Below the pieces are notes generated by a model. The model did no database searches, was not told the DNA's origin, and saw nothing but the letters and a program-made list of their open reading frames with translations. From the IMG/VR virus record IMGVR_UViG_3300042914_003037, positions 1 through 53,014 of that record: a stretch of DNA of 53,014 nt; one strand, given 5' to 3'. The DNA comes from a virus. Lineage: Duplodnaviria; Caudoviricetes. Positions 26,923 through 41,320 of this stretch are shown here, piece after piece (the stretch's first letter is position 1; each line of letters begins with the position of its first letter). The position numbers and the translations under genes are program-made.

Positions 26923-26928
26923 GATATT

Positions 26929-27002: not shown

Positions 27003-27010
27003 AAATTATT

Positions 27011-27084: not shown

Positions 27085-27098
27085 ACAGAAAATTATTA

Positions 27099-27220: not shown

Positions 27221-27230
27221 ATGGTCTATT

Positions 27231-27707: not shown

Positions 27708-27723
27708 CTACTATTTATGCTCT

Positions 27724-27797
27724 TGGCGTCTCTCCACGGTACCGCCCCGCATTCCTCAGTTTTGGAGACTGATACATCACTTTAATGCTTGAGAGAC
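27724..27797 (-). tRNA. tRNA-Trp(CCA), atypical T-loop
   Basis: TCAGT-CTCCAAA-ACTGA, T-loop GGCGGTA, G73, CCA. Confidence 0.8.
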
Positions 27798-27874
27798 ATT
27801 ATTTTGGCAGTGAGTGTGGGATTTGAACCCAAACCTGCGTTTTTTTTCAATCATGCTGGATAGGCAAATTAAAT

Positions 27875-27964
27875 TGGCGGAGTGACTGGGACTTGAACCC
27901 AGAAGCCGTATTACTACAGCCGACGGATTAGCAATCCGCTCCAATACCATTATGGGATCACTCC
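27875..27964 (-). tRNA. tRNA-Ser(GCT)
   Basis: Cloverleaf, long variable arm, CCA. Confidence 0.9.
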
Positions 27965-28573
27965 TTGATGTTTTAACTCTTTTTTCTTCCACACAACCAA
28001 ACACTCATTAAATTGCGACCATTTACATCTATCCAATTCAGTTTCATACCCTTTAATTTCAAGATAGCCCCCTAATTCTTCTACCCAAAAATCTGGAGTG
28101 TAATAACTTATTTTATTTTTTAAGTTAATGTATTGAAATCTAATTGTATTTCTTTTCCAAAGAAAATTGTTCTGGTCTAACCATTTAGCTACCGCTAACT
28201 CCCACTTACCGTCTAAACTTACCTCGCCGGCGATTGGAGAAATGTATTTATATTTTTTACATCTTCCAGCTTTCGGGCTCCAACCATTTTCATATCTTTT
28301 GTTTATGTTAGTTCTGGCCGAATCTGCTAATCGTTTCTTGCCATCCACAGTTAATTTTCCTTTTCCATTCTTTTTGGAAATACTAACGGAATCGCTTATT
28401 TTTCTTGGGGTGAATAAACCATTCTTTACTGCTTGATTGATAAGTGTCTGGGAAGATAGATCATATAATTTGATTATGTCACGATATGAAAGTCCAGAAT
28501 CATACACGCGCTGAATTTCTTTCCAATCGTAATTTACAAATTTTTTATTATTCGAATTGTTTCTTTCCTTCAT
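27950..28573 (-). CDS. putative homing endonuclease, PD-(D/E)xK type
   Basis: WELAVAKWLD...YTPDFWV...YLEIKGY with N-terminal HTH-like part. Confidence 0.75.
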   Translation of the reverse strand: MKERNNSNNKKFVNYDWKEIQRVYDSGLSYRDIIKLYDLSSQTLINQAVKNGLFTPRKISDSVSISKKNGKGKLTVDGKKRLADSARTNINKRYENGWSPKAGRCKKYKYISPIAGEVSLDGKWELAVAKWLDQNNFLWKRNTIRFQYINLKNKISYYTPDFWVEELGGYLEIKGYETELDRCKWSQFNECLVVWKKKELKHQGVIP

Positions 28574-28703
28574 CGAGGGACATTGGCTGGAATAATTAGA
28601 ACAACATCATCTGCCTGACCCAAATTGCTTAATAGCATTAAGATTACATCCAAAATCACACTTCATTTATTTTTTTCTCCATGTGATTTTATTTATCAAA
28701 TAT

Positions 28704-28743
28704 TTGGTAGGGTGCCGATTTAAACCTCTCATCCAACTCACTA
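28704..28743 (-). pseudogene. 5' fragment of a Ser-like tRNA
   Basis: GTGAGTTGGATGAGAGGTTTAAATCGGCACCCT: acceptor strand and D-arm, no 3' half. Confidence 0.5.
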
Positions 28744-28748
28744 TATTC

Positions 28749-28828
28749 TGGTGGAGAATATCGGATTCGAACCGATCTGAATTTCCTCGGTGCAAGCGAG
28801 GCGACCACCCCAAGCAGTCCCATTCCCC
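28749..28828 (-). tRNA. tRNA-Ala(TGC)
   Basis: G3:U70, CTTGCAC loop, CCA. Confidence 0.9.
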
Positions 28829-28839
28829 ATAAAAAACTT

Positions 28840-28924
28840 TGGTGCCCCCCAAGAGACTCGAACTCTCACGCCTTTCGGCGCCAGGACCTAAACCTGGTGC
28901 GTCTACCAATTCCGCCAAGAGGGC
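28840..28924 (-). tRNA. tRNA-Leu(TAG)
   Basis: Cloverleaf, long variable arm, CCA. Confidence 0.93.
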
Positions 28925-28986
28925 AATCAATTATCTATTTAGCATTACTCACATTATAGTTCGTTGAACTATAATGTCAATAATTT

Positions 28987-29106
28987 TGGTGTCGCCGCTG
29001 AGATTCGAACTCAGGTTTCTTCCTTGGAATGGAATAAGAAATTGCTGAACGTACTCTATACAGAGTCACCCTTTTTTAAGCGTCCTAACCACTAGACGAC
29101 AGCGAC
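28987..29106 (-). ncRNA. tRNA-like RNA whose anticodon arm is replaced by the stem/WCAGCAA motif (copy 7)
   Basis: GTCGCTG/CGGCGAC-A-CCA, normal D and T arms, centre AAAAAAGGGTGACTCTGTATAGAGTACGTTCAGCAA. Confidence 0.7.
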
Positions 29107-29146
29107 AAAAATTCTGAACGGGTTTGCACCGTAATCAAAATGTTTT

Positions 29147-29204
29147 AAACAGAATGCTTTTTTTCACCAATTGAAAGTTGTGTAAGATTTGCTGTAAGCA
29201 TTCT
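29147..29204 (-). ncRNA. stem/WCAGCAA motif RNA copy 8
   Basis: TAGAATGC-TTACAGCAA..CAA-CTTTCAA-TTG..GCATTCTG-TT. Confidence 0.65.
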
Positions 29205-29210
29205 AAAATT

Positions 29211-29285
29211 TGGCGGTCCCAACGGGGGTCGAACCCGTTCCTGCGCCGTGACAGGGCGCTATCCTAGCCGGTAGACGATGGAACC
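29211..29285 (-). tRNA. tRNA-Asp(GTC)
   Basis: Cloverleaf with CCA. Confidence 0.92.
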
Positions 29286-29291
29286 TATATT

Positions 29292-29366
29292 TGGTAGGAG
29301 CATTGGGATTCGAACCCAAGACCAACGGATTAAAAGTCCGCTGCGCTACCGCTGCGCCATACTCCC
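29292..29366 (-). tRNA. tRNA-Lys(TTT)
   Basis: Cloverleaf with CCA. Confidence 0.92.
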
Positions 29367-29792
29367 AAAAATTGTTATCATATTTCAACACACTGATGGG
29401 CTTCTTTTAAGTCGAACTAACCCCGCACCCCAGTGATTTATTCCACTCTGTTCAGAGGTTGTTTTCAATGTGCTGAAATATGATATCTTAAAGACATCAT
29501 ATCCTACTTTGACTTTTAAAGAACTGTTTTGATGCAATACATAGATTGTGCATCAAACCTCAATTCTTGTCAATAGTAGTTTGACAATATGCTCACCAAC
29601 ACGAATTTCAATTAATCATCGTGTTTAGATTTTTTACAGCCGATGAATCATTGTCACGACATACGTAATAGCAACAACTTTACCTGACGATTTAATTAAA
29701 TAGATAATGTCAGCATCTAACTCATGTGTCTTACCACACTATATAATAATTTTAAAATATATATATTATTTTTGTGAGCATATCATCAAATT

Positions 29793-29870
29793 TGGAGTGC
29801 GGGGTCGGATTTGAACCGACGGTTTTCAGGATTTGCAATCCCGTGCAATGGGCCGCTCTGCCACCCGCAC
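29793..29870 (-). tRNA. tRNA-Cys(GCA)
   Basis: Cloverleaf, U73, CCA. Confidence 0.9.
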
Positions 29871-29876
29871 ACTAAA

Positions 29877-30239
29877 TTATAAATTACTTAAAGTTTTCCA
29901 ACCATATTTCTTTGCACAAGCAATACTAATTTTAAGTGCTGCTGCACATGGAAATCTATGATTCTTTTTAAAACGCCAGCCGTTTAAATAAAATTCTTTT
30001 AATACAGTATCACCATTCCAAGAATTGCGACTGGTCGTAATATAACCTTGTTCTTCTAACTGATCGCGCAGTTTAGTGAATTCATCATGATCTATGTTAC
30101 TGGTAGAGAACGACTTATCAGTGCCCTTAAGAACTTTGATAATATCGTCATGTGTGGGATTATTACGATCCTTAATCCAATCGTATTCTGTTCTAACAGT
30201 AACATCACAGATATATTCTTCCGATATTGTAAAATTCAT
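29877..30239 (-). CDS. hypothetical protein
   Basis: ORF with GGAG SD. Confidence 0.75.
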   Translation of the reverse strand: MNFTISEEYICDVTVRTEYDWIKDRNNPTHDDIIKVLKGTDKSFSTSNIDHDEFTKLRDQLEEQGYITTSRNSWNGDTVLKEFYLNGWRFKKNHRFPCAAALKISIACAKKYGWKTLSNL

Positions 30240-30412
30240 ATCTATTCTCCGATTATTATATGATCAAATGAGACTTAATATGGAATGATATGAGCAAAAT
30301 TACGAGTAGTGGACACTGCCCCGCACCATGCTCTACGCTGACTTTGGTTTCGAACCCTAGGCCAGTGTGCCTTTCTCTTGCTAACGCTGAAACACACTAT
30401 GTTATTGATCTA

Positions 30413-30799
30413 TTATATTTGGCGTGAAATTATTCTGAATCTTCGTAATTCATCTGTTAGTTTAGTTTGAGAATCAACCAACATTATACGCGCCTTGCGA
30501 CCTTCAAAAACAGTTTGGAGACGCCTTGCAAGGGAATCCTGCATTGCTACTCTGTCATTTATTTGACGCCGCACTTCAATCATAACAAAACAAGCATCGT
30601 TTGCATTTGTTCCTGACTTGTCTTTCACATATAGAACAATGTCGGGTCCCAATAGACGAACGCAAAATTCCTTAATTTCTTTTAACTCTTCAATGTCTAG
30701 AGGACCAGAGGGCTTGGGAGTAGGCCGCACACCCAGTTTTATCATTTGATTAGATTGGGGGATTAAGCCCCAATTAGTCTCGCTAAATTTAGAGTCCAT
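30413..30799 (-). CDS. degenerate minimal-nucleotidyltransferase-like protein, paralog of 6720-7046
   Basis: IKEFCVRLLGPDIVLYV...LARRLQTVFEGRKARIMLVD; lacks GS/DxD. Confidence 0.55.
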   Translation of the reverse strand: MDSKFSETNWGLIPQSNQMIKLGVRPTPKPSGPLDIEELKEIKEFCVRLLGPDIVLYVKDKSGTNANDACFVMIEVRRQINDRVAMQDSLARRLQTVFEGRKARIMLVDSQTKLTDELRRFRIISRQI

Positions 30800-31049
30800 T
30801 TTATATTTGCCTCACTTTTGGATTGATGCTGCACTTATTTATCGCATGTCTTCATTGCAGTTCTTCTTCACCATATTTCAACACACAGAATTCCCTGAAT
30901 CAACCCCCACTTAAAGCAACGGCGATCCATACATCAACTCACTTTATCGTTCATTGAGTCTGGAGTCGAACCAGAACTATGTGTTGAAATATAGTGCGAC
31001 CCATTGTGGGGTGAACTTCGAAACCACCATCTCGCCGCGCTTTAGACCA

Positions 31050-31754
31050 CTAAGCTACCGCCACTTTAGATTGTTTTCTTTTTTCCCAGGCCAACTTTGA
31101 CGCAACCGATAATTTTTGATTGTGATCCTCTGTTCGTTTTCTCTTGTGTGGGCTCTTTTTCTTACCTCTTACCTTATCTGCTTGCTTTTTAGCAACAGAT
31201 GGGTCCTTCATTGGGTTATTACTACTCATCCGAGTACTCAATATTTCCTGAGTATAAGATGATTTACAAATCACTGAACAAAATATTGTATTAGTAATTT
31301 TTAGATACGATGCGTTGCAATATTTACAAGTGCTCAATTTTTTTCTACCTGCAACCCATCCTTCAGGAATTACCACACTTTTTTCTATTTTCTTTTGTTC
31401 GCCCTGTAAATTTGTTATCCATTTAGTTCCGTGTTGAGAATTCCCTTCGGCAGTTTGATTTATTGACACCGCTTCGGCGTATTTTCTTCTAAGCCAGCCA
31501 TACAATTTATTTGATGGACGATTGACAATCATCACCCTTGCTGCGTAAATTAAAGAATGATTATCTGGATAGATTTTTATCAAGAGTTGATGAGCAACAT
31601 AATGTTCTTCTGGAGTTAGTTCGACCAGATTCTCTATCTCATCTGATCCACCCAAACAACGAGGAATAATATGGTGTATTTCCTTATATTCAGATTCAAT
31701 CTTTCTTTCTTTGCCTCTAGTAATCAGAGTATCGTAAATGTTCTTGTAATTCAT
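31050..31754 (-). CDS. HNH homing endonuclease
   Basis: EIHHIIPRCLGGSDEIENLVELTPEEHYVAHQLL; NUMOD-like basic C-terminus. Confidence 0.9.
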   Translation of the reverse strand: MNYKNIYDTLITRGKERKIESEYKEIHHIIPRCLGGSDEIENLVELTPEEHYVAHQLLIKIYPDNHSLIYAARVMIVNRPSNKLYGWLRRKYAEAVSINQTAEGNSQHGTKWITNLQGEQKKIEKSVVIPEGWVAGRKKLSTCKYCNASYLKITNTIFCSVICKSSYTQEILSTRMSSNNPMKDPSVAKKQADKVRGKKKSPHKRKRTEDHNQKLSVASKLAWEKRKQSKVAVA

Positions 31755-32490
31755 AGTAAAATGCTATAGTAGTTGGGGAGGTGAGATGCCCGCGAACTAC
31801 ACTATTATTTATCACAGTGCTATACAAATACTTCAATATGGTGGGGGAATTCCACCCCCTCTCAATGTGCAGGCTTGCTTACAGACGGTTATGTATTCCC
31901 GTTCTTCCCAACACCGCGATCTTTGAGTAAGACCATGTCTTAATGGTCGCAAGAGACACAGTGAGCAATCCCAACTTCTCATAGCCAATCAGCCACTTAG
32001 GTTAAACCCCGCGCCACTTACATGCTACCATATTTCAACACTCTACCCAACCTAGCCCGGGATGCTGTTTGTACATTAGAGGAGTGCTGAAATATGGCGC
32101 TGTATTTTTGCCCAAGGAGATTGACCTATTGTTCTTCTCTTCACACTGCGACAGCTTTGAACTGAGAGATCGCAGTAACTTGGAATACAGCATAACTTGG
32201 CGTACATGGAGATCATTTCAATCGTCTTTCGCTCTCGCAAGAGTACCCTCAATCTTCGGGCTCATGTACATAAACTAGTTGACAGTATATGGATTCTTTC
32301 CTGTCAGTCACGGAATTACTTCGAATAACCACGAGCATACTTCTCCGTAAAAGGGAGGTGCAACGTATCCGTGTCTTAAAACTTGATGAAGCATTCTGGA
32401 TTCGAACCAGAAGAGCGATACTCAGACCCTGCTAGCGGGTCATATGAGTGCTAGCACGCCGATACTATCTCACGCGATGCTTCAATAACT

Positions 32491-32579
32491 TGGTGGGTCC
32501 TGATGGTAACGCTCCACGAGGCAACTTCCTTACAAAACAATGCCAACGGATTTACAGTCCGCCGTAAGGGGCAGAACCC
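32491..32579 (-). tRNA. D-armless tRNA-Tyr(GTA)-like gene
   Basis: GGGTTCT/AGGACCC-A-CCA, GCGGA-CTGTAAA-TCCGT, short linker instead of a D-arm, expanded variable region. Confidence 0.65.
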
Positions 32580-32909
32580 AAATTCTTGCCGGTTACGCTT
32601 TCCGGCGCTGCTTGTAGTCTCCACAAATCAGGAGTAGTACACAGTCGTAAATACAAATTCTTGCCTGTAGTTCAACATGAAGGACTTTACATGCCTACAC
32701 CCACGTATTACGTTCCGACCGGGTTAGCCGTTGCAGACATCCTTCTGCACTAGGTACCATATTTCAACACACTACAGCTCATCTGAGGATTTCGACGTCC
32801 CCACAGGGTCCAGCACCACCTGGATGGTTCCTGCCTCTTGCGATAGCACTTGTGTAGATCCTTCCAACCACTGTCTACAAGCCCTTGGGTAGGCTAATGC
32901 GCTGAAATA

Positions 32910-32984
32910 TGGTACTCCCGAACGGTTTCGATCCGTCTTTTCCGCCTTGAAAGGGCAGCGTCCTAGCCAGTAGACGACGGGAGC
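32910..32984 (-). tRNA. tRNA-Glu(TTC)
   Basis: Cloverleaf with CCA. Confidence 0.9.
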
Positions 32985-33079
32985 AAATACTCTATGCTAA
33001 TTGTATAAAGAACTCGCTGATTTCTCAGCATGTTGACAGTATATCAGGACTCTGATTTATTGTCAAACTGTTTTTGTTT

Positions 33080-33164
33080 TGGTGCCCGGAGCCGGGGTCG
33101 AACCGGCACGCCGTTAAGCGAGGGATTTTAAGTCCCTTGTGTCTACCTATTTCACCATCCGGGC
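33080..33164 (-). tRNA. tRNA-Leu(TAA)
   Basis: Cloverleaf, long variable arm, CCA. Confidence 0.93.
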
Positions 33165-33170
33165 AATATT

Positions 33171-33247
33171 TGGTGCCCCCACCTGGACTCGAACCAGGAA
33201 CCTAACGATTATGAGTCGTTTGCACTAACCAATTGTGCTATAGGGGC
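33171..33247 (-). tRNA. tRNA-Ile2/Met(CAT)
   Basis: Cloverleaf, CGA-CTCATAA-TCG arm resembling bacterial Ile2, CCA. Confidence 0.88.
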
Positions 33248-33680
33248 ACGATCTAACTTACTATATTTCAACACACTATAGCTTCCTCTTGAGGCTCACT
33301 GGCCGTCTGACGCAGTGCTGGGCCTTGTACCCAGAAAATGTGCTGAAATATAGTATCACGCTACGTCAACGACTCTGAAAATCAGAATCTCAGTTGGCGT
33401 GATACAAAAACTCTATGCTAATTTTTAAAGATCGTCGCTGATTTCTCAGCGTTGAAGACAGTATATCAGAGTTCTGATTTATTGTCAAGAAACTGCCAGG
33501 TAGCTTAATGTGTGATTTCCACTACCCTGTTACTCTGTATCAGTCTAGGCAGTGTTCAAGGACTTTTGTCTCATGTCTTACCTAGCATCAACCTACGTCA
33601 CACTGTTTTCGACAGTTTGATAACTATAACAGAACCCTGATTTATCGTCAATTGCTATGCTCTGTAGGCTGACGCTTCAT

Positions 33681-33752
33681 AAACTCTAGGGGGATTCGAA
33701 CCCACCGTAACCCGCTCAAGGAGCAGGTATCCTATCCGCTAGATGATAGAGA
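33681..33752 (-). pseudogene. degenerate tRNA (loop TCCTTGA, no CCA)
   Basis: D- and T-arms recognisable, acceptor stem broken. Confidence 0.5.
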
Positions 33753-34504
33753 CTCCGATTTAGCACCGCGGCAACGGGGGTTCATCGGGTGAAGTAACAG
33801 ACCTTCTGACGATTGCCGCCATCAGCCTACAGAACACAACAACTTGTTAAAGAACTTCAGTGATTTCTCACTGTTAAAGACAGTATATCAAACTTCTGAT
33901 TTACTGTCAACTCCATTTTTCTCAATGATTAGATCGAAATGCACTCGCATCTGCTTTTTGAGCCGCGTGTTCTCCACCCTTGATTCCTAGACTAGTACTA
34001 GGGGTGTGTGCCCATTTACACTAGCACTTCGATCTAATCACTGATTGTTAAAGAACTACGCTGATTTCTCAACGTTAGAGACAGTATATCAAACTTCTGA
34101 TTTACTGTCAAGTTTCTATAGTGCGTTTATCAGCCCGCCCTGTTAGTTCAAGCTACGCACCCTTGCCGGATGCTCACACCGTTACGTGTGGAGGTTGATT
34201 CCTCTGTTGTAAGCCCCCGTAACGAGAGGCTTGCGGGCTGATAAACACACTACAGATTGTTAAAGAGCGACAGTTTACGCTACTGTCAAACGAAGGCCTG
34301 TGGGTTCTCAGGCTACCTCACACTAGACGTTATACTGACAACTGGGATTGTGCTTCCCGAAACAACCTGTAGCGGCTGTGGGAGTTTGTTGTCCCGCTTT
34401 TGTGCCTGCTACACTGTGACCCTGTTTGTTGTCAGTTCTCTAGCGTATGAATACATTATAGTTGAGACTTGATTTATTGTCAAGCATTAAGTTGTTAAGT
34501 TGTT

Positions 34505-34530
34505 TGGCGCGACTGGAGGGATTCGAATCT
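34505..34530 (-). pseudogene. 3' tRNA fragment (T-loop, acceptor strand, CCA)
   Basis: TTCGAATCCCTCCAGTCGCGCCA immediately after the endonuclease stop codon. Confidence 0.65.
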
Positions 34531-35325
34531 CTATACGCGATTTGATTTTCGTTTAAAACAATTATTTGTGTAGAATTCCAGAGCGTATCGTTTCATATAG
34601 TGATTTACTTTTTGCTGAGGCACTTCTAAAATTAGAGAGGCTTTTTTAACCCACCCAAACACGGAGAAGTTTATGTCAGACTCAAGTAATTTTTTAATTT
34701 TTGATAAAAACTTTTCATCGGTTTTTCTTTTTGTTTTTGTTCCCCTTGCCTCTGAGTTATTCATCAACTTATGCTGATCACGCAACATCTTTACATTGAA
34801 ATACTCAGTATAGTCTGGCTGTTCCCAACGAGTAATCAATTTTTTTAGGATTTCTTCATTGAAGCAACTAGAATAGTGCAATTCAATTAGTTTCCAGCCT
34901 GCATCAACAATTTCGTTGTGTCTATTTTGATAATACTCTTTAAGAGTGCCGTCTCTATTGTAATGCTGATTGCCGTTTATTTCAATTCCAAGTTTAATAT
35001 CAGGAAAAGCAATATCTATAGAGTAGTGGCGCGACTCTAACGGACTCCATTCTTCAACGAAGAGAATTTGCTGTTCAATTAAAAATTTCTTTACTCGTTC
35101 GCACGGCTCAGATTTGAATTTAGTGCTTCTCTTCCATACATGTTTGTCTGAGTTTTGCAGAAGATAGTTTATTCTACTTTTTGAAATTTTTTCTATAGTC
35201 TCAGATGTCACTATCTTCGCACAATTTACTGAGCAATACTTACTCCTTCTTCTGTCGTGAACTACTCCACAGCGTTCACAGTTTTTTTGTTTTCTAGGTC
35301 TAGACATAATTCGAACTTTCATCAA
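34531..35325 (-). CDS. putative homing endonuclease, Vsr/DUF559-like
   Basis: N-terminal CxxC..CxxxC; YSIDIAFPDIKLGIEINGNQHY...GWKLIELHY. Confidence 0.8.
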   Translation of the reverse strand: MMKVRIMSRPRKQKNCERCGVVHDRRRSKYCSVNCAKIVTSETIEKISKSRINYLLQNSDKHVWKRSTKFKSEPCERVKKFLIEQQILFVEEWSPLESRHYSIDIAFPDIKLGIEINGNQHYNRDGTLKEYYQNRHNEIVDAGWKLIELHYSSCFNEEILKKLITRWEQPDYTEYFNVKMLRDQHKLMNNSEARGTKTKRKTDEKFLSKIKKLLESDINFSVFGWVKKASLILEVPQQKVNHYMKRYALEFYTNNCFKRKSNRV

Positions 35326-35351
35326 CAGTAGTATTAATAAAAGTTCAAAAA

Positions 35352-35430
35352 TGGAGCCCCGGAGAGGATTCGAACCTCCATTGACTCCATTACACTGCTA
35401 CGCTTTAGAAGAGCGTTGTGGTACCGGGGC
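35352..35430 (-). tRNA. D-armless tRNA-Arg(TCT)-like gene
   Basis: GCCCCGG/CCGGGGC-T-CCA, ACGCT-CTTCTAA-AGCGT, canonical T-arm, 7-nt linker instead of a D-arm. Confidence 0.7.
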
Positions 35431-35605
35431 ATTGTTCGAATTTCATAATTAAGTTATTATATTGCTTTTTGATTTATTTGTCAACAGAAATGTTGATTCA
35501 GTCACTACTGTTTTGATTAAGTTGCTTTAGCAACTTTCGTTTTCTTTTAGATATAGCTTTGTCAGATATGTTTAACATCTAACACTCATACATGAAATTG
35601 TAAAT

Positions 35606-35874
35606 TGGCTCCCTGTCGTGGGATCGAACCACGGACCAACAGATTCTGGTTTGTGTGACTTTCGCCACTCCCTGGACTTTATCTTGACCATAGCATTTCT
35701 GCCTTAGGCCCCTGCCGTCAAGTCTCTACACGTTCCCATTTCTGGGCTTCGCTCGGTATTGCCATATGCTTTCGCACTTAGATTTCACCGAATTTGACAG
35801 GATTTTCAACTACTGTTTCCAGTAGAAGTGTCAATTTCTAACAGTCTGCTGCTCTACCGCTGAGCTAACAGGGA
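35606..35874 (-). tRNA. tRNA-Asn(GTT) interrupted by a group I intron
   Basis: Exons 35840-35874 and 35606-35645 join into a perfect cloverleaf. Confidence 0.92.
35646..35839 (-). mobile_element. group I self-splicing intron (194 nt, no ORF) at tRNA position 36/37
   Basis: 5' exon ends in U, intron ends in G; core AAATTCGGTGAAA, AATACCGAGC, GTAGAGACTTGAC, AAGATAAAGTCC. Confidence 0.9.
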
Positions 35875-35884
35875 ATTGTTTGAT

Positions 35885-35959
35885 TGGTGCCGGATGTCGG
35901 GTTCGAACTGACGACCTACCGCTTACAAGGCGGTTGCTCTACCACTGAGCTAATCCGGC
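35885..35959 (-). tRNA. tRNA-Thr(TGT)
   Basis: Cloverleaf with CCA. Confidence 0.93.
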
Positions 35960-36166
35960 AAAATCTTTGAAAGAACTAATTTATTTAGACGTAGTATATC
36001 ATCATCGGTATTTTTGTCAAACTGTTTGTTGTCCAAAATTTGTTGATGATTGCTAACGTCAGTAAAGATAACTCCTGTAGTGAAGGCACAATTCGTTCCA
36101 AGCGTTTATTGCATCGTCGTGTTGTCGTTGTATTTCGTTCCACTCATTCATAGTTATCTCCTTATT

Positions 36167-36249
36167 TGGTGCCCTAACTCGGACTCGAACCGAGAAGCCG
36201 AAGCAGTAGATTTTGAGTCTACCGTGTTTACCAATTTCACCATCAGGGC
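36167..36249 (-). tRNA. tRNA-Leu(CAA)
   Basis: Cloverleaf, long variable arm, CCA. Confidence 0.9.
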
Positions 36250-36256
36250 AATATTT

Positions 36257-36332
36257 TGGTGCTGCCTCGTGGGATCGAACCACGTTCCAAGGCTCTTCAG
36301 GCCTCCGCTATGACCACATCAGCTAAAGCAGC
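36257..36332 (-). tRNA. tRNA-Phe(GAA)
   Basis: Cloverleaf with CCA. Confidence 0.9.
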
Positions 36333-36346
36333 ATTATTTCATTATT

Positions 36347-36431
36347 TGGTGCACAAGAGAGGAATCGAACCTCCACGCCTTTCGGCACTACCACCTCAAA
36401 GTAGCGTGTCTACCAATTCCACCACATGTGC
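36347..36431 (-). tRNA. tRNA-Leu(GAG)
   Basis: Cloverleaf, long variable arm, CCA. Confidence 0.88.
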
Positions 36432-36463
36432 AGCGTGTATTCAAAGAACTTAGGGGTGACCGA

Positions 36464-36537
36464 TGGGGCGAAGTCGGGAATCTAACCCTGGCTAACTATT
36501 TCACAGATAGTTGTGCTAACACTACACTAACTTCGCC
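36464..36537 (-). tRNA. tRNA-His(GTG)
   Basis: G-1:C73, CTGTGAA loop, CCA. Confidence 0.85.
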
Positions 36538-36549
36538 ATCTGAAATATT

Positions 36550-36627
36550 TGGTCTGGGTGGCAGGCTCCGCCCCTGCGGCCTCCGGCTTCCAAAACCGGC
36601 CGTCTACTAGACTGACAATACACCCAG
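36550..36627 (-). tRNA. tRNA-Pro(TGG), atypical T-loop
   Basis: CTGGGTG/CACCCAG acceptor, TTTGGAA loop, T-loop GGCGGAG, CCA. Confidence 0.82.
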
Positions 36628-36636
36628 AATGTTCTT

Positions 36637-36732
36637 TGGACCGACGGGTGGGATTCGAACCCACATCAGTATACAGTGATACCACTCCAAGTTACCTTTG
36701 TCCGCGTTCGTAGCGCGGGGGGATACCGTCGG
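36637..36732 (-). tRNA. D-armless tRNA-Arg(ACG)-like gene
   Basis: CCGACGG/CCGTCGG-T-CCA, CCGCG-CTACGAA-CGCGG, canonical T-arm, ~37-nt variable region. Confidence 0.7.
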
Positions 36733-36751
36733 ATTGTTTGTTTGAATTTGT

Positions 36752-36827
36752 TGGTAGGTCTTGCTGGAATCGAACCAGCGGTCTTCACGATGTCAACGTG
36801 ACGATTTAGCCGCTAATCTAAAGACCT
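36752..36827 (-). tRNA. tRNA-Val(GAC)
   Basis: Cloverleaf with CCA. Confidence 0.9.
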
Positions 36828-36900
36828 GATGCTGTTGACGATTTGTCACATTGTCGCCGTCAACAAGGGCGAGAAATAACTTCAGTGTTCAAAAATTTGT

Positions 36901-36974
36901 TGGTGCTCCAGACAAGAATCGGACTTGTGATACATCCTTACCAAGGATGCGTTATACCATTTAACTACAGGAGC
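36901..36974 (-). tRNA. tRNA-Thr(GGT)
   Basis: Cloverleaf with CCA. Confidence 0.85.
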
Positions 36975-36978
36975 AATA

Positions 36979-37043
36979 TAACAGAATGCTTTTTTACGAG
37001 TCAAATTAGTAGTTTGATGTATAAGTTTGCTGTAAGCATTCTA
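36979..37043 (-). ncRNA. stem/WCAGCAA motif RNA copy 9
   Basis: TAGAATGC-TTACAGCAA..TCAAA-CTACTAA-TTTGA..GCATTCTG-TTA. Confidence 0.65.
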
Positions 37044-37049
37044 AAACTT

Positions 37050-37140
37050 TGGCGGAAGAGGGCGGAGTTGAACCCCCAAGGGCTTTCTAGGCCTCGACGC
37101 ATTTCAAGTGCGCTACCGTCGCCAGTCGGTTTGCTCTTCC
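37050..37140 (-). tRNA. tRNA-Ser(TGA)
   Basis: Cloverleaf, long variable arm, G73, CCA. Confidence 0.9.
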
Positions 37141-37180
37141 TTTGATCTATTTACACTAAATACTACGAGGAGAAATAAAA

Positions 37181-37294
37181 ATGCTTGAAACACTATTCTA
37201 TCTTGCAGTAGGCGCATTCATTGGATGGAACTTTCCACAGCCAGAATTCGCCAAAACTCTACAATCTAAGATTGTAGCACTATTCAAAAAGTAA
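37181..37294 (+). CDS. small membrane protein (37 aa, MLETLFYLAVGAFIGWNFPQPEFAK...)
   Basis: GAGGAG SD, CTAAATA motif upstream, hairpin at 37324-37355 downstream. Confidence 0.7.
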   Translation: MLETLFYLAVGAFIGWNFPQPEFAKTLQSKIVALFKK

Positions 37295-37498
37295 CACACT
37301 CAAATTACACATTTGAATGCGTATAGTAAAGAGCACCACTATGCTCTTTACTATCATTGAGACACCACTCAAAGGTGTGCTATCTCGTAATAGATTTCCC
37401 TTTATCGCACTCAGTCAGCCTAAAGAGTACTCGGCTGCTTCTTAGCGGTCCGGCGCTATTTCTATACCGCGAATTCCTGACGCGGTTTACACTGTAAC

Positions 37499-37533
37499 AA
37501 AAACAAAACCCTAAGATTTTCGGTCTTAGGGTT
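37499..37533 (-). terminator. intrinsic terminator of putative attenuator
   Basis: AACCCTAAGA-CCGAAAA-TCTTAGGGTT followed by TTGTTTTT. Confidence 0.8.
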
Positions 37534-37565
37534 CACAGTTTTGTAGATACTTTTATGTAGTTACA

Positions 37566-37679
37566 CTACCGTGAACCCTCCAACCCATCATTATAACCAC
37601 GAATAAATGCGGGCATGACGGACCAGAGTCTTGTCTGCTCACATTTTGAGGCGGTTAGTAATGTATGCTTAGTGTTCAT
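37566..37679 (-). CDS. putative attenuator leader peptide MNTKHTLLTASKCEQTRLWSVMPAFIRGYNDGLEGSR
   Basis: 37 codons, all 20 amino acids; last codons form the 5' strand of an antiterminator. Confidence 0.7.
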   Translation of the reverse strand: MNTKHTLLTASKCEQTRLWSVMPAFIRGYNDGLEGSR

Positions 37680-37689
37680 GATAGATGCT

Positions 37690-37718
37690 ACTATATTCTA
37701 TTTATCAATTTCTGTCAA
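37690..37718 (-). promoter_or_regulatory. sigma70 promoter of the leader/tRNA array
   Basis: TTGACA-17-TATAGT with an embedded GATAAATA late-type motif. Confidence 0.8.
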
Positions 37719-37809
37719 ACATATTGGATAATCGTGTTTTTTTGTGTTTCCAATTTTCCAACATTGTTATTAACAATGCTTTCAATATTTATTTATTGAT
37801 TGTTTCAAT

Positions 37810-38385
37810 TTATCGCTGCTTATCGCTGTTTTTTGCATAAAAAGTGTGATTTCCAATAGTAGCCACTTTTTGATATGGCCATCTTGGATTTACTGAACTA
37901 TTATGAAAGAACAACACATTAGATGGAACTATATCACTCCAAGCATTTTCTGTCAACACTCTTTTTGCAATTTCTTCCGCCTGCTTGTATTGAGCGTTTC
38001 TTGTCGGCGTTTGCTTGTCTTCACATACCCAACTGAATTGACAAACCGTGGTGTCATCTCCATTTTCTCGTTTAATCTCGTGTTTTGCGTAAATCACCGC
38101 ACAAGGGTTCTGTGCAAAACCGTGTTTGATACGATTCATAACAACACGAGCAACCATTACTTGTCCCATGAATGGTTCACTTGCTGCTTCGTGATATATG
38201 TTTGTTGCCATGCATCTTAAATACTCTGCGTTCACGGCAATTTTGGTTGCGGTTTTGTTTTGTAGTTCTACATATACAATATCTTGTGTTTTTTGCTTAG
38301 CACCGACATTATAAAACATCACTGATGTAAAAACAAGTATTGATAAAAATAAAAAATAAAACAGTATTCTGCTTGTTGTAAGCAT
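37810..38385 (-). CDS. cell wall hydrolase, SleB/Hydrolase_2 family, with N-terminal TM anchor
   Basis: CMATNIYHEA, VARVVMNR, CQFSW, IGNHTFY. Confidence 0.92.
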   Translation of the reverse strand: MLTTSRILFYFLFLSILVFTSVMFYNVGAKQKTQDIVYVELQNKTATKIAVNAEYLRCMATNIYHEAASEPFMGQVMVARVVMNRIKHGFAQNPCAVIYAKHEIKRENGDDTTVCQFSWVCEDKQTPTRNAQYKQAEEIAKRVLTENAWSDIVPSNVLFFHNSSVNPRWPYQKVATIGNHTFYAKNSDKQR

Positions 38386-38407
38386 ATCAGTCTCCTTTTG
38401 ATTTTAA

Positions 38408-41320
38408 TTATTTCCAGCAATCGCAATTACAAGTTGTAACCATTCCGATTGCTTCGTTCACCGTATAACTGGCAGTGTTGCTTGATACTAAGTTGTCAGA
38501 TACTGGGAAGTCTCCAGTATATATTGATCCAGCAAAACTTCCAGGAACATTGGTGGTCCCAAGTCTGGGATTTCTTGGTGGTGGGTCTATATTGACTGGA
38601 ATGCATCCATTTTCAATAGAGTAATTACTACCACTCGAAATAATATTTATCTTTGTGACCGATCCATTTTCTACAATTGCCGCTGCTGTTGCTCCAGAAC
38701 CACTTCCTCCGAATACTCCCCCGAATGGTCCTATTTTTACTTTTGGCGGAGTAGTGTTGTTATATCCACGACCTCCAGATATAACAGTAATACTGGATAT
38801 TCCTCCCGATTGATTGACTTCACATGCCTCTGCCGCTGCTTGATTCAGATGCAGTTCTGTCGGGACGCTATTATCCAATTCTCCGCCTATGTTCATAAGT
38901 CTGATGGCATTTCTTGATTCTCTCATTAGTGCTATCAGTGATTGTCCTCCAACGCTGTTTGCGTTTGATATTTGCTCTAATATGCTTGCTATGTCTCCAT
39001 ACTGAGTCTTTTGTGCCCAATTTTCTATGTTTTTTACAAAGATTTCAAAATCAGTTAAACTGGTTTCTGCATATAGTTCTTGATTGCTCTTTATGGCAAA
39101 GGGTATGGCAAGTTGCTCGGTATATAATTGTTTTCCTATTTTGTCCCAATAAAAATTGATTTTATTGTATAAATCATTATTGTTCGCGAATAGTCTGTGT
39201 ATTTCCAAGTTTGCAGCATCTATTAGATTCTGAATACTATTTTCGTATTCTGTTTCCTCGACATATACTATCGTGTTTGCTGATATGTCATTTTGCAACG
39301 ATTCATTTAAAGTTATAGTGGTGTTGACTCCATCAAACGCTATTTGCTTTACAGTGTAGTATGTTGATCCGGTATTTACAAAACTTATTTTTGTATTGGC
39401 CGTAAGAATCTGCGTAAGATTTAGATTGATTTTTATAGTGTCAGTCTGTGCCGAAGCGACATCAACGGTTTTAAATACGGTGTATGCATATTCGCTGCTC
39501 CAAGAAGGAGTTTGATTTATTACAGAATCTTGATGACCTTTGCCTCTGGAAATAAGTGCCCATCCGTTATTCAATGACTTCTGATACAACTTCGTGTAGA
39601 CATTTTCTAACTTTTCTGCGTCTACTAATTTGAATAGATTCTGTATTTGATTGTAATAATCAGCGTATGGGATAGAACTTACTGCTCCAAAAAAATCACA
39701 CTGTCTGAATATTCCACGATTGCCGCTTCCAAACGCGATGTTTTTCAAGAAAGCGTCAACAGAATCAGTGTTCACTGGACTTGCATTTGGATTGTTTATC
39801 AAATCAAGATTTTTATCAAGAACTTCTAAATTCGCCACCACTTGAGCAAATTGCTCAAGATTCATTTTTTTGATGTTCTTTATCTGACACATAGACATCA
39901 TAAATGCACCGCAAGCACTTGCCAACTCTTCGGGCAGTATATTACTTAGATAATCTCCCCAGTTTTCTATTCTGGGATTTATGCCTTCGCCAATGTAAAT
40001 AAAATCGTAAATCTTACTGACTGGATTACTGATGTCATAGTGAGGGACCGTAAGAGATGGATAACTATTAGGAAACATCTTTATTGGATTCATAAGATCA
40101 GACAAAGAATCCAAGTTTTCAGTAGTGCAGTTTAGAATTATTTTTATGCTCTCTAAGTCCTGACCAGTTATGTATTCCATACATTCGTATATCTTTTTTT
40201 CCTGATCAATGGTTGGAACATACTTAGCAGATAAAATGTTGTCCAACTCCGAGGTAGACAAGTCATTGTAAAGCAATACAAACTTTAATGCGTCTGTAAG
40301 AGCACCAACAGATTGAAGATTCAACAGAAATGTGCTTGGAGTTCCAAATTTATCTATACCAGACAAATTCAGTGATTTGCCCAATCTAATTAGATCGTTC
40401 CCGAATTCTTTAAACGCCAAGTTTATGCCTGCTATATCGGCCGAGGCCAAATCATTTAGATTGCTGAAATTACCTTTCAAAAAGGTTTTGCTATTTACGA
40501 ATGATCCGATATTTTGATTAGTAGTATCTTTCCAGGAACTACACTGAACAAAACTTTTTATCAACTCTTTGTATTGATTTGGTCTTCTGGTCTGATGATC
40601 AGACCAGAGTTCATAATACGCTTGTCTTGCTACCGTTGATAAAAACCCGTTCTTGAAATACTCATCATATTCAATGAGATTTTGATCGCGACTTCTTATG
40701 TCAGGACGAGGGAAATATGCTGCACTATAATCGTCAGTTTCTTTTTGAAAGGCACTTCTTGCTGGCCATCCTGTTACCCAAGCATATTCATGACGCCATT
40801 GATAATCGTACTGATAGTCTTGTTTACTTGTTGATCCAAATAGTTTATAGATATAACTACCAGTTTGCTCAGACCCATAATTTGATGGTGGATAAACTTC
40901 ACCAACCAACTTTAACTCTGTTCCTGTGTTTATGACATTTCCAAAAGAATCGATTACATTCATGCTCCAGTCGCCGTATCCAGCATAACTGGTCTTGAAT
41001 GTGTCCGGTCTACTATTACCAAGTGCTGGACAATTTATTCTGTTGTCTGTCTTTATGTTTGTTGGTCTTCCAATCGACAAAAGATTTCTGTATAGCGACA
41101 CACTGATAGAATCAGATTGCGCCATGTTGTAAAAATTAGGAAGTGAGTCGGTAAGTTTCTTTAAAAAAGAATCTGCAACTATTGAACCTTGAGAACATGC
41201 ACTTGGCGTCCAATTTCCCTGATAATTTATCGCTATCGGAGAAATAGAGAATACATTGTTCTTTATTAGTTCTCCATATAGATTTAAACCCAATGGAGTA
41301 TATTGACCGTTCAAACTCAT
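38408..41320 (-). CDS. large virion/baseplate-associated protein
   Basis: 970 aa, coupled to the PAAR gene; C-terminal ITVISGGRGY...GSGATAAAIVENGSVTKINIISSGSNY structural repeat. Confidence 0.7.
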   Translation of the reverse strand: MSLNGQYTPLGLNLYGELIKNNVFSISPIAINYQGNWTPSACSQGSIVADSFLKKLTDSLPNFYNMAQSDSISVSLYRNLLSIGRPTNIKTDNRINCPALGNSRPDTFKTSYAGYGDWSMNVIDSFGNVINTGTELKLVGEVYPPSNYGSEQTGSYIYKLFGSTSKQDYQYDYQWRHEYAWVTGWPARSAFQKETDDYSAAYFPRPDIRSRDQNLIEYDEYFKNGFLSTVARQAYYELWSDHQTRRPNQYKELIKSFVQCSSWKDTTNQNIGSFVNSKTFLKGNFSNLNDLASADIAGINLAFKEFGNDLIRLGKSLNLSGIDKFGTPSTFLLNLQSVGALTDALKFVLLYNDLSTSELDNILSAKYVPTIDQEKKIYECMEYITGQDLESIKIILNCTTENLDSLSDLMNPIKMFPNSYPSLTVPHYDISNPVSKIYDFIYIGEGINPRIENWGDYLSNILPEELASACGAFMMSMCQIKNIKKMNLEQFAQVVANLEVLDKNLDLINNPNASPVNTDSVDAFLKNIAFGSGNRGIFRQCDFFGAVSSIPYADYYNQIQNLFKLVDAEKLENVYTKLYQKSLNNGWALISRGKGHQDSVINQTPSWSSEYAYTVFKTVDVASAQTDTIKINLNLTQILTANTKISFVNTGSTYYTVKQIAFDGVNTTITLNESLQNDISANTIVYVEETEYENSIQNLIDAANLEIHRLFANNNDLYNKINFYWDKIGKQLYTEQLAIPFAIKSNQELYAETSLTDFEIFVKNIENWAQKTQYGDIASILEQISNANSVGGQSLIALMRESRNAIRLMNIGGELDNSVPTELHLNQAAAEACEVNQSGGISSITVISGGRGYNNTTPPKVKIGPFGGVFGGSGSGATAAAIVENGSVTKINIISSGSNYSIENGCIPVNIDPPPRNPRLGTTNVPGSFAGSIYTGDFPVSDNLVSSNTASYTVNEAIGMVTTCNCDCWK

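What the first reader, a model, noticed from the sequence alone, without database searches (positions are those of the whole stretch)
37499..37718. All-20-amino-acid leader-peptide attenuator at the head of the phage tRNA array
Seen: a sigma70 promoter (TTGACA-17-TATAGT, 37690-37718) precedes an almost leaderless 37-codon ORF (37566-37679, MNTKHTLLTASKCEQTRLWSVMPAFIRGYNDGLEGSR). The ORF contains every one of the 20 amino acids and, by my count, 32 different codons. Its last codons (AGGGTTCACGG) are complementary to CTGTGAACCCT (37528-37538), which overlaps the 5' arm of an intrinsic terminator (AACCCTAAGA/TCTTAGGGTT plus U-tract), so the two hairpins are mutually exclusive. Known: this is the geometry of ribosome-mediated attenuators (trp, his), but those sense one or a few amino acids through repeated codons. 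Inference: this is a pan-tRNA sensor. If all tRNAs are available, the ribosome reaches the stop codon, masks the antiterminator and transcription ends. If any tRNA is lost (starvation or a host anticodon-nuclease defence), the ribosome stalls upstream and the phage tRNAs downstream, which also span all 20 amino acids, are transcribed. I do not know of such an element being described.
Basis: partly seen in the sequence, partly recalled or inferred. Interest (0 to 1): 0.95.

Follow-up and report, generated by a model that had tools for sequence, protein, structure and literature searches.

The report
Phage leader peptide using all amino acids
A family of giant lake phages carries, just ahead of their tRNA genes, a tiny gene whose product always contains all twenty amino acids and whose end is wired into a transcription on/off hairpin switch, which looks like a device that measures whether the cell can still translate every amino acid.

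Summary
The element lies on the minus strand: a promoter (37718-37690), a 37-codon ORF with no Shine-Dalgarno (37679-37566), and a 12-bp hairpin holding the stop codon that competes with an intrinsic terminator (37534-37506).

Comparative evidence:
- I found homologues in 20 other phage contigs, with exactly one copy in each of 3 complete ~350-kb genomes.
- The frame is always open and ends in or just after the 5' arm of the competing hairpin.
- Both helices covary, and their shared segment is frozen within sub-families.
- tRNA genes follow on the same strand in all 16 relatives' loci with enough downstream sequence.
- 18 of 20 distinct leader peptides (35-57 aa, 11-62% identical to the window's) contain all 20 amino acids; the other 2 have 19.
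- Rare residues such as Cys move between positions. No column shuffle reached the observed coverage (0/4000 and 0/20000).
- Background ORFs of 33-40 aa: 0 of 541.
- Coverage is complete upstream of the hairpin arm in 9 of 13.

Best reading: a ribosome-mediated attenuator with a "pangram" leader that senses shortage of any amino acid.

- Codon diversity is barely above chance.
- The window's tRNAs cover 17 amino acids, not 20.
- A structured RNA, a second terminator and a convergent gene lie between the switch and the first tRNA.

Function is untested.

The parts
37690..37718 (-). Sigma-70-type promoter (TTGACA, 17-nt spacer, TATAGT). The spacer holds an A/T-rich heptamer (37705..37699) that recurs 7-8 nt or 19-52 nt upstream of the leader ATG in the relatives.
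   Evidence: 11 of 12 matches. The heptamer was read by eye in the upstream sequences printed.
37566..37679 (-). Leader ORF of 37 codons plus stop. It has no Shine-Dalgarno, and the ATG lies 10 nt after the -10 hexamer (near-leaderless). The peptide contains all 20 amino acids, and all 20 are already present in the first 31 codons.
   Evidence: Homologous ORFs are open in 13 of 13 DNA sequences examined, against 35 and 55 stops in the other two frames.
37586..37667 (-). Long imperfect hairpin inside the leader ORF. It could act as an RNA polymerase pause or timing structure; that is inferred.
   Evidence: Present in both the MFE and centroid folds. Its conservation across relatives was not formally tested.
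37568..37579 (-). Arm A, the 5' arm of the antiterminator hairpin. It covers the last three sense codons and the first base of the stop codon.
37528..37539 (-). Arm B, the 3' arm of the antiterminator hairpin. Its last 7 bases are also the start of the terminator's 5' arm.
   Evidence: The shared bases are invariant in the 10 sequences of alignment A8.
37496..37534 (-). Intrinsic terminator T1: stem-loop 37534..37506 (11 pairs, 7-nt loop) followed by a T-tract.
   Evidence: It forms in 12 of 12 homologues folded with the 5' part masked up to stop+13.
37294..37495 (-). Structured RNA directly downstream of T1 (z = -4.8), ending in a second terminator-like hairpin (37322..37294). It is the first thing a read-through transcript would contain.
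   Evidence: The 5' half is identical between the window and L002, although the leaders differ.
37181..37294 (+). Convergent 37-aa small gene with a Shine-Dalgarno, lying between the switch unit and the first tRNA.
   Evidence: A homologue with many synonymous differences is in L003.
37050..37140 (-). First tRNA of the array, tRNA-Ser(tga). Rfam scores it as Sec-like.

Best explanation
This is a ribosome-mediated transcription attenuator whose leader peptide is a 'pangram' of all 20 amino acids. RNA polymerase starts at a promoter placed so that the transcript begins at or within a few bases of the AUG.

If a ribosome translates the short ORF to its end, it unwinds and covers arm A, which holds the last codons and the stop. 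Arm B is then free to pair with the downstream segment, the intrinsic terminator forms, and transcription stops.

If the ribosome is held up at any codon upstream of arm A, because any one charged tRNA is scarce, or if translation fails altogether, arm A pairs with arm B as soon as B is made. The terminator cannot form, and polymerase reads on into the downstream structured RNA and, in most relatives directly, into the tRNA genes.

Every amino acid is represented in the part of the ORF upstream of arm A, so the switch reports shortage of any amino acid or tRNA family rather than of one. The phage thereby gets demand-driven expression of what lies downstream.

Shown here:
- the anatomy of the element;
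- its conservation;
- covariation of both helices;
- the maintained all-20 content and where it sits in the ORF;
- the linkage to tRNA arrays.

Inferred:
- that the ORF is translated;
- that the hairpin terminates transcription;
- the direction of the switch;
- the physiological signal;
- the regulated cargo.
For: 1. Anatomy in the window.

2. Homologues. I found them in 20 other contigs by four independent routes:
- neighbouring hydrolase gene plus blastn;
- a peptide pattern;
- a DNA pattern of the three arms;
- a covariance model and a peptide profile run on whole records.
There is exactly one match in each of 3 of 3 complete genomes.

3. The reading frame. It is open in 13 of 13 DNA sequences examined, with 35 and 55 stops in the other two frames. 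The stop lies in arm A, or in the loop after it, in all 13.

4. Antiterminator helix. 92.6% of cells are paired, and 4 of 12 pairs change on both sides. The covariation score is 0.287 against 0.120 in shuffles (0 of 500 reach it). Slid controls reach at most 51% paired.

5. Terminator helix. 100% paired, with 2 of 10 pairs compensatory.

6. Divergent homologues (L098, L099, L100, L101) use different arm sequences in the same three-way arrangement.

7. Local folds. The A:B hairpin is the MFE in 8 of 12. With the RNA masked up to stop+13, the terminator forms in 12 of 12. The two conformations lie within 6 kcal/mol of each other.

8. Pangram property.
- 16 of 18 distinct peptides have 20/20, plus 2 more new ones with 20/20. 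The remaining 2 have 19.
- Column shuffles with gaps held fixed give a mean of 2.6 full sets (0 of 4000 reach 16). The result holds without the window, and within the short and long groups taken separately.
- Even a perfectly uniform composition gives only 1-2% at 35-38 aa, 9% at 45 and 22-30% at 53-57.
- Background ATG-ORFs in 105 loci: 0 of 541 (33-40 aa), 2 of 332 (41-49 aa), 10 of 242 (50-60 aa).
- Cys occupies 8 different alignment columns.

9. Position of the coverage. The last new amino acid appears 7-19 nt upstream of arm A in 12 of 13. In 9 of 13, all 20 are present in the part of the ORF that ends 9 nt before arm A.

10. Evolution of the peptide. Three pairs of relatives differ about equally at all three codon positions, with more non-synonymous than synonymous codon changes: 9 v 4, 16 v 6 and 9 v 3. 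This is not what a conventional folded protein shows.

11. No Pfam or PHROG family matches.

12. tRNA genes follow on the same strand 0.16-1.4 kb downstream in the window and in all 16 relatives' loci with enough downstream sequence.
Against: - No experiment or transcript-end data exists. The only RNA evidence is one 151-nt metatranscriptome contig of a relative that bridges the terminator. DNA carry-over cannot be excluded.
- There is no Shine-Dalgarno in any homologue, so translation must be leaderless. That is usually inefficient in Gram-negative hosts (general knowledge).
- Each amino acid is present only 1-7 times and 4-10 are singletons. Known attenuators use runs of codons to gain sensitivity.
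- In L002, L087 and L097 one amino acid occurs only in the zone where a stalled ribosome would already mask arm A.
- In the window and L003, a second terminator and a convergent gene lie between the switch and the tRNAs.
- In L098, L024, L099 and L101 a sigma-70-like promoter follows the terminator directly, and the window's array has about 10 strong internal promoters. The switch therefore cannot be the sole control of the tRNAs.
- In 4 of 12 homologues (L024, L097, L099, L100) the terminator, not the antiterminator, is the local MFE.
- One close pair (L089/L090) shows 6 synonymous against 1 non-synonymous codon change. An invariant Trp and a conserved I-R-G-x-N-D-like block suggest the peptide sequence itself matters.
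- The shuffle tests ignore phylogeny.
- The arm offsets used were read by eye.
Confidence: 0.6

Rival explanations
1. A nascent-peptide or general translation-rate sensor. The same hairpin switch is used, but the signal is not each amino acid. The conserved Trp and the I-R-G-x-N-D-like block act inside the ribosome tunnel, as in SecM or TnaC. They would pause or hold the ribosome in response to some other cue, or simply time the ribosome over arm A. On this view the all-20 content is secondary.
For: - Trp is invariant in 18 of 18 peptides, and a basic/Gly/Asn/Asp block is conserved 7-10 codons upstream of arm A (distances read by eye).
- The close pair L089/L090 shows purifying selection, 6 synonymous v 1 non-synonymous.
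Against: - It does not explain why 18 of 20 homologues keep all 20 amino acids while rare residues move between positions.
- It does not explain why coverage is complete before arm A.
- The motif's distance from the stop varies from 10 to 21 residues (read).
- The conserved residues may instead reflect RNA structure inside the ORF.
Confidence: 0.15
2. An ordinary small phage gene with its own promoter and terminator. The peptide has a function of its own. The upstream complement of the terminator is a stabilising or incidental structure, and the amino-acid diversity has no regulatory meaning.
For: - Promoter + small ORF + terminator units are common in phage early regions, and the window has many strong promoters.
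- The peptide family has conserved positions.
- It is single-copy in complete genomes.
Against: - No Shine-Dalgarno in any member.
- About equal change at all codon positions in 3 of 4 pairs.
- Covariation of a helix that includes the stop codon and competes with the terminator.
- All-20 coverage far above every null.
- No Pfam or PHROG family, and no gene call in 5.8 billion clusters for the L002 form.
Confidence: 0.12
3. An untranslated small RNA (promoter to terminator, ~185 nt), or the 5' processing leader of the tRNA precursor. On this view the ORF is an accident of a structured RNA.
For: - Very strong predicted structure (z = -6.55).
- No ribosome-binding site.
- A structured RNA also follows it.
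Against: - The frame from the promoter-proximal ATG to arm A is open in 13 of 13, with 35 and 55 stops in the other frames.
- Indels are in multiples of three.
- An amino-acid-level property (all 20) cannot be selected in an untranslated RNA.
Confidence: 0.05

Closest known systems
Leader-peptide attenuators of amino-acid operons (trpL, hisL, thrL, leuL, pheL, ilv leaders); recalled from textbooks, no paper read
   Same: - A short ORF sits in the 5' leader.
- An intrinsic terminator follows, whose 5' arm can alternatively pair with an upstream segment.
- The position of the translating ribosome decides which hairpin forms.
- The stop codon is placed so that a ribosome that finishes masks the antiterminator arm.
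   Different: - There is no run of codons for one amino acid. Instead every amino acid is present, mostly once to three times.
- The mRNA is near-leaderless, with no Shine-Dalgarno.
- No clear anti-antiterminator (1:2) hairpin is present, so the untranslated default appears to be read-through.
- What lies downstream is a structured RNA and tRNA genes, not a biosynthetic operon.
- It is phage-encoded.
pyrBI / pyrE attenuators of E. coli (recalled)
   Same: The leader peptide has no amino-acid-specific meaning. The switch reads how closely the ribosome follows RNA polymerase.
   Different: - There, a closely following ribosome prevents the terminator hairpin and the signal is UTP-dependent polymerase pausing.
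- Here, a ribosome that completes the ORF is predicted to promote termination.
- The composition of this peptide is under selection.
Antibiotic-responsive upstream-ORF attenuators (erm, cat, vmlR / lmo0919 type); recalled, no paper read
   Same: A ribosome stalled inside a short upstream ORF lets an antiterminator form, and polymerase reads through an intrinsic terminator.
   Different: - The signal there is a drug-stalled ribosome on a specific peptide motif, and the cargo is a resistance gene.
- No pangram property is known for those leaders.
T-box riboswitches
   Same: They couple the state of the tRNA pool to a terminator/antiterminator choice.
   Different: - T-boxes bind one uncharged tRNA directly and need no ORF.
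- No T-box or any other Rfam family matched the element at E <= 1.

Membership tests
Ribosome-mediated (leader-peptide) transcription attenuator | Short ORF in the transcript's 5' leader | tested here: met
   37-codon ORF at 37679..37566. Homologous ORFs of 35-57 codons are open in 13 of 13 DNA sequences, with 35 and 55 stops in the other frames. Three further ones are in L110-L112.
Ribosome-mediated (leader-peptide) transcription attenuator | The ORF is translated | not testable with these tools
   Support is indirect only: frame-preserving indels and selection on amino-acid content. No Shine-Dalgarno is present, so initiation would have to be leaderless.
Ribosome-mediated (leader-peptide) transcription attenuator | Intrinsic terminator between the leader ORF and the downstream genes | tested here: met
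   Stem of 11 pairs plus a T-tract. The helix is 100% paired in 9 distinct sequences, with 2 compensatory pairs.
Ribosome-mediated (leader-peptide) transcription attenuator | Alternative antiterminator pairing that shares bases with the terminator's 5' arm | tested here: met
   12-bp helix, 92.6% paired, 4 pairs with changes on both sides, 0 of 500 shuffles reach the covariation score. The same arrangement occurs with other arm sequences in L098, L099, L100 and L101.
Ribosome-mediated (leader-peptide) transcription attenuator | ORF end placed so that a terminating ribosome masks the antiterminator arm | tested here: met
   The stop lies in arm A or in the loop after it in 13 of 13. The terminator stem starts 18 or more nt after the stop (distances read by eye).
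Ribosome-mediated (leader-peptide) transcription attenuator | Run of regulatory codons for the sensed amino acid(s) | tested here: not met
   There are no runs. Each peptide has 4-10 amino acids present exactly once, and the commonest residue occurs 3-7 times.
Ribosome-mediated (leader-peptide) transcription attenuator | Upstream pause / anti-antiterminator hairpin (1:2) | tested here: inconclusive
   A long hairpin lies inside the ORF. In some group-1 members the 5' end can pair with arm A, but this is not seen in group 2.
T-box riboswitch | Match to the T-box covariance model (specifier loop, T-box sequence) | tested here: not met
   No Rfam hit other than tRNAs, a group I intron and weak chance-level matches in 25000-39000 at E <= 1.
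Known protein families (Pfam-A, PHROGs) | Profile match of the leader peptide | tested here: not met
   At E <= 1, no Pfam or PHROG family was matched by more than 1 of the 14 members. The best E-values were 0.013 (PHROG) and 0.11 (Pfam).
Nascent-chain arrest peptides (SecM / TnaC type) | Conserved peptide motif at a fixed distance from the arrest site | tested here: inconclusive
   There is an invariant Trp and a conserved block, but their distance to the stop varies from 10 to 21 residues and no arrest site is known.

The most novel reading that the evidence does not exclude
Giant phages carry a closed-loop 'translation capacity meter'. It is a near-leaderless pangram ORF read once per transcript. 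Its completion shuts off, and its failure at any one of the 20 amino acids switches on, a conserved structured RNA and the phage's own tRNA genes. The phage would then supply tRNAs on demand, for example when the host degrades or cleaves tRNAs in defence or runs out of an amino acid. The conserved Trp / I-R-G-x-N-D block would serve as a built-in nascent-chain brake that holds the ribosome over the antiterminator arm long enough for the terminator to be made.
Probability: 0.3. Interest if true: 0.93.

Novelty: new variant of a known kind. Interest (0 to 1): 0.88.

Why it matters
Leader-peptide attenuation is a textbook mechanism, but every known case senses one or a few amino acids through repeated codons.

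A leader that natural selection keeps complete for all 20 amino acids would be a new sensing logic: a single short ORF that reports the weakest link of the whole aminoacyl-tRNA pool.

It would also be the first regulatory element proposed for phage tRNA arrays. The expression and purpose of these arrays (codon-usage compensation, host shut-off, escape from tRNA-cleaving defences) are debated.

The element is small, modular and easy to test in a reporter. It could serve as a general biosensor of translational sufficiency. The structured RNA that always follows it is itself an uncharacterised family.

Tried and rejected
- Megablast and blastn of the region against 50,697 GenBank phage records gave no meaningful match. 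The only hits were a 32-nt stretch to two records of Bacillus phage CP-51.
- An exact 24-nt pattern of arm A gave no hit in viral contigs.
A 40-residue translation of L002 found no called protein.
- Codon-level 'pan-tRNA' reading: rejected as a separate signal.
  - Distinct codons sum to 436. That is well above expectation under the window's codon bias (404 +/- 6.7) but only marginally above uniform synonymous use (422.8 +/- 6.5, P = 0.027).
  - The four Leu codons of the window's leader do match the four phage tRNA-Leu one to one. By my own arithmetic the chance of that is about 0.07, and the relatives have too few Leu codons to repeat the test.
- Sequencing runs: all holders are assembled contigs, and the single RNA run holds only a small share. 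When laid, it gave one 151-nt contig of a relative covering 37408-37541 and nothing over the ORF. Contigs cannot show transcript ends, so I draw no conclusion about termination.
- The covariance-model alignment A12 mixed in reverse-strand palindromic matches and was not used for pair counts.
- Covariance-model hits L102 and L103 had no leader ORF and were treated as false. P0007 (repeat protein) and L113 (E = 0.017) were also set aside.
- A 1:2-type pairing of the 5' end with arm A appears in some folds but is not general.
- Supplementary files of papers were not needed.

Full report
WHAT IS THERE

The window is an IMG/VR virus contig of 53 kb, judged about 15% complete. That implies a phage of roughly 350 kb. 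DNA runs that hold it are labelled lake-water metagenomes.

The finding lies on the minus strand. Reading 5' to 3':
- A sigma-70-type promoter, TTGACA-17-TATAGT, at 37718..37690.
- An ATG only 10 nt after the -10 hexamer, with no Shine-Dalgarno.
- A 37-codon ORF at 37679..37566.
- Arm A (37579..37568), made of the last three sense codons and the first base of the stop.
- Arm B (37539..37528), complementary to arm A over 12 bp with one G-U.
- A terminator hairpin (37534..37506, 11 pairs) whose 5' arm begins inside arm B, followed by a T-tract.

The 191-nt RNA folds to -66.1 kcal/mol against -40.7 +/- 3.9 for shuffles (z = -6.55). The minimum-energy fold contains the arm A: arm B hairpin, not the terminator. 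The peptide has all 20 amino acids and 32 distinct codons.

IS THE SINGLE SEQUENCE BEYOND CHANCE?

Only weakly. A random 37-mer with this phage's amino-acid composition has all 20 in 0.4% of draws. Among 69 ATG-ORFs of 33-40 aa in the window, a second one (28486..28599, + strand) also has all 20. The 32 codons are what uniform synonymous use gives: 30.5 +/- 1.7, P = 0.27. The case rests on the relatives.

RELATIVES

GenBank phages gave nothing. Four independent routes found homologues in 20 other contigs:
- The neighbouring cell-wall hydrolase gene (38385..37810) led to L002, L003 and L004.
- A peptide pattern led to L084-L087.
- A DNA pattern of the three arms led to L089, L090, L091, L093 and L096.
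- A covariance model of the switch region (R1) and a peptide profile, run on whole virus records, led to L097, L098, L024, L099, L100, L101, L110, L111 and L112.

The peptide profile matches exactly once in each of 3 of 3 complete genomes (348-364 kb). It also matches once in each of four fragments (G004, G005; G006, G010). Two other fragments had no match, and one had only a weak match that I set aside.

A profile search of 1.84 billion representative proteins found six true hits. One is identical to L099's peptide and five are new variants. There was also one false hit. Pfam and PHROGs have no family for the peptide.

THE FRAME AND THE SWITCH ARE CONSERVED

In 13 of 13 DNA sequences examined, the frame from the promoter-proximal ATG is open for 35-57 codons. 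The other two frames hold 35 and 55 stops. Indels between relatives are multiples of three. The stop lies in arm A, or in the loop just after it, in all 13.

On the alignment of ten switch regions (nine distinct):
- The antiterminator helix is 92.6% paired. Four of 12 pairs change on both sides, and the covariation score is 0.287 against 0.120 in shuffles (0 of 500 reach it). Slid controls are at most 51% paired.
- The terminator helix is 100% paired, with two compensatory pairs.
- The bases shared by the two helices never vary in these ten. That is expected if they must satisfy two partners. For five of the ten, however, this invariance was imposed by the search pattern.

The divergent homologues were not found with that pattern. 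L098, L099, L100 and L101 have different arm sequences in the same three-way arrangement: arm A complementary to arm B, and arm B overlapping a terminator.

Local folds show the following:
- The A:B hairpin is the minimum-energy form in 8 of 12. In L024, L097, L099 and L100 the terminator is.
- When the RNA is masked up to 13 nt past the stop, as a terminating ribosome would do, the terminator forms in 12 of 12.
- The two conformations differ by 1.3-6 kcal/mol in the seven members compared.

THE PANGRAM PROPERTY IS MAINTAINED

Of 18 distinct peptides (11-62% identical to the window's), 16 contain all 20 amino acids and two contain 19. Two further new variants, L110 and L111, also have all 20.

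Shuffling residues within alignment columns, with gaps held fixed, gives on average 2.6 full sets, and 0 of 4000 shuffles reach 16. The result holds in each of these subsets:
- without the window, which was chosen for this property (15 of 17 against 2.4);
- with one sequence per lineage;
- within the short group alone;
- within the long group alone.
An earlier version that also shuffled the gaps gave 0 of 20000.

Composition cannot explain this. Even equal frequencies of all 20 give a full set in only 1-2% of 35-38-mers, 9% of 45-mers and 22-30% of 53-57-mers.

The empirical background is also low. In 105 loci of related phages (733 kb, six frames, leaders excluded), all 20 occur in 0 of 541 ORFs of 33-40 aa, 2 of 332 of 41-49 aa and 10 of 242 of 50-60 aa.

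Rare residues are kept but not in place. Cys occupies eight different alignment columns, and His, Asp, Tyr and Phe also move. Only Trp is invariant.

Three of four related pairs differ about equally at all three codon positions, with more non-synonymous than synonymous codon changes (9 v 4, 16 v 6, 9 v 3). One close pair shows the opposite, 1 v 6.

THE COVERAGE IS WHERE THE MODEL NEEDS IT

A ribosome stalled on or just before arm A would mask it, just as a finishing ribosome does. Only codons further upstream can signal.
- In 12 of 13 sequences the last new amino acid appears 7-19 nt upstream of arm A.
- In 9 of 13 all 20 are present in the part of the ORF that ends 9 nt before arm A. That is 29-44 residues.
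- In 10 of 13 no amino acid occurs only in the late zone. The arm positions for this test were read by eye.
- For uniform composition the chance of a full set at these lengths is 0.08-7%.

CONTEXT

tRNA genes follow on the same strand 0.16-1.4 kb downstream in the window and in all 16 relatives' loci with enough downstream sequence. L004 and L087 end too soon to tell. In the L089 group one tRNA-Met precedes the element.

The ground between switch and tRNAs varies:
- In the window there is a ~190-nt structured RNA (z = -4.8) whose 5' half is identical in L002. It is followed by a second terminator (37322..37294) and a convergent 37-aa gene that is conserved in L003. Only then comes tRNA-Ser(tga).
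- In L087, the L089 group, L100 and L097 a different structured RNA family sits there, with 19 of 26 predicted pairs compensatory and no Rfam match. In the L089 group and L100 it runs straight into the first tRNA.
- In L098, L024, L099 and L101 a sigma-70-like promoter follows the terminator.
- The window's array has about ten strong internal promoters.

The switch therefore cannot be the only control of the tRNAs. Its immediate cargo may be the structured RNA.

MECHANISM

The best-supported reading (confidence 0.6) is a ribosome-mediated attenuator.
- A ribosome that completes the ORF covers arm A. The terminator then forms and transcription stops.
- A ribosome held up at any upstream codon, or no ribosome at all, leaves arm A free to pair with arm B. 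Polymerase then reads through.
- Because the upstream part of the ORF samples all 20 amino acids, shortage of any one should open the switch.

The anatomy, the conservation, the covariation, the maintained coverage and its position, and the linkage to tRNA arrays are shown. Translation, termination, the direction of the switch and the physiological signal are inferred.

The main weaknesses are:
- No ribosome-binding site.
- Single codons instead of runs.
- The variable cargo.
- The conserved Trp and I-R-G-x-N-D-like block. These suggest the peptide sequence also matters, perhaps as a nascent-chain brake.

COMPARISON AND NOVELTY

The element works like the trp and his leaders. It fails their defining feature of repeated regulatory codons and does not control a biosynthetic operon. 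It shares the 'stalled ribosome opens an antiterminator' logic with antibiotic-responsive upstream ORFs. It is not a T-box.

Seven full-text searches found nothing describing such an element. They combined leader peptide, attenuation, all 20 amino acids, phage, tRNA array or cluster, anticodon nuclease and related terms. I saw only the listings and the starts of abstracts. Subscription journals are not covered. Statements about known systems are recalled, not read.

I rate it a new variant of a known kind, with high interest.

Noticed in passing
window 37294-37495 (-); L087:3205-3375, L096:2362-2530, L091:7791-7962, L097:4452-4640, L100:1335-1500 (-): A structured RNA always follows the switch. 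In the window, L002 and L003 it is one type (z = -4.8; the 5' half is identical between the window and L002). In L087, the L089 group, L097 and L100 it is a second, clearly conserved family, with 19 of 26 predicted pairs compensatory. Neither type has an Rfam match. In L097 it sits about 360 nt downstream of the switch, after a protein gene.
   Followed up: partly
window 37181-37294 (+); L003 5067-5207 (-): A conserved 37-aa hydrophobic small gene with a Shine-Dalgarno, convergent with the switch unit. It differs from its L003 homologue mostly by synonymous changes.
   Followed up: partly
window 35606-35874 (-); L002 5252-6169: tRNA-Asn(gtt) appears to be interrupted by a group I intron (Rfam 59.8 bits at 35653-35851). 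In L002 a tRNA, an HNH endonuclease ORF and a group I intron lie together.
   Followed up: no
window 17264-17893 (-) and 17165-17254 (-): A PP-loop (TilS-like) ORF sits next to a tRNA that ARAGORN calls Ser with anticodon act.
   Followed up: no
window 29385-29537 (-): A 50-aa ORF with all 20 amino acids starts 7 nt after a TTGACA-17-CACAAT promoter (29573-29545) and ends 18 nt before tRNA-Lys. No terminator/antiterminator pair was seen. It could be chance: the background for 50-60 aa is about 4%.
   Followed up: no
window 34111-34058, 33910-33858, 33066-33015 (-): A repeated module inside the tRNA region: a near-consensus promoter (TTGACA-17-TATACT) followed by a short, similar hairpin.
   Followed up: no
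L096 2648-2714: A weak Y RNA-like (YrlA) match at 36 bits, below the gathering score, between two tRNAs. It is probably a degenerate tRNA-like element.
   Followed up: no
L098 1915-2529 (-): A 204-aa ORF that I judged by eye, from its N-terminal motif, to be a GIY-YIG-like homing endonuclease. It is inserted between the switch and the tRNA array.
   Followed up: no
window 36059-36283 (-); L003 5223-5315: Small ORFs that share an I/V-N-x-W-N-x-L-C...Y-R-S-x-L-Y motif recur in the tRNA regions. In L002 and L087 a short ORF with a related I/V-N-A-W-N motif and a Shine-Dalgarno follows the structured RNA; I read that one by eye from the DNA printed.
   Followed up: no
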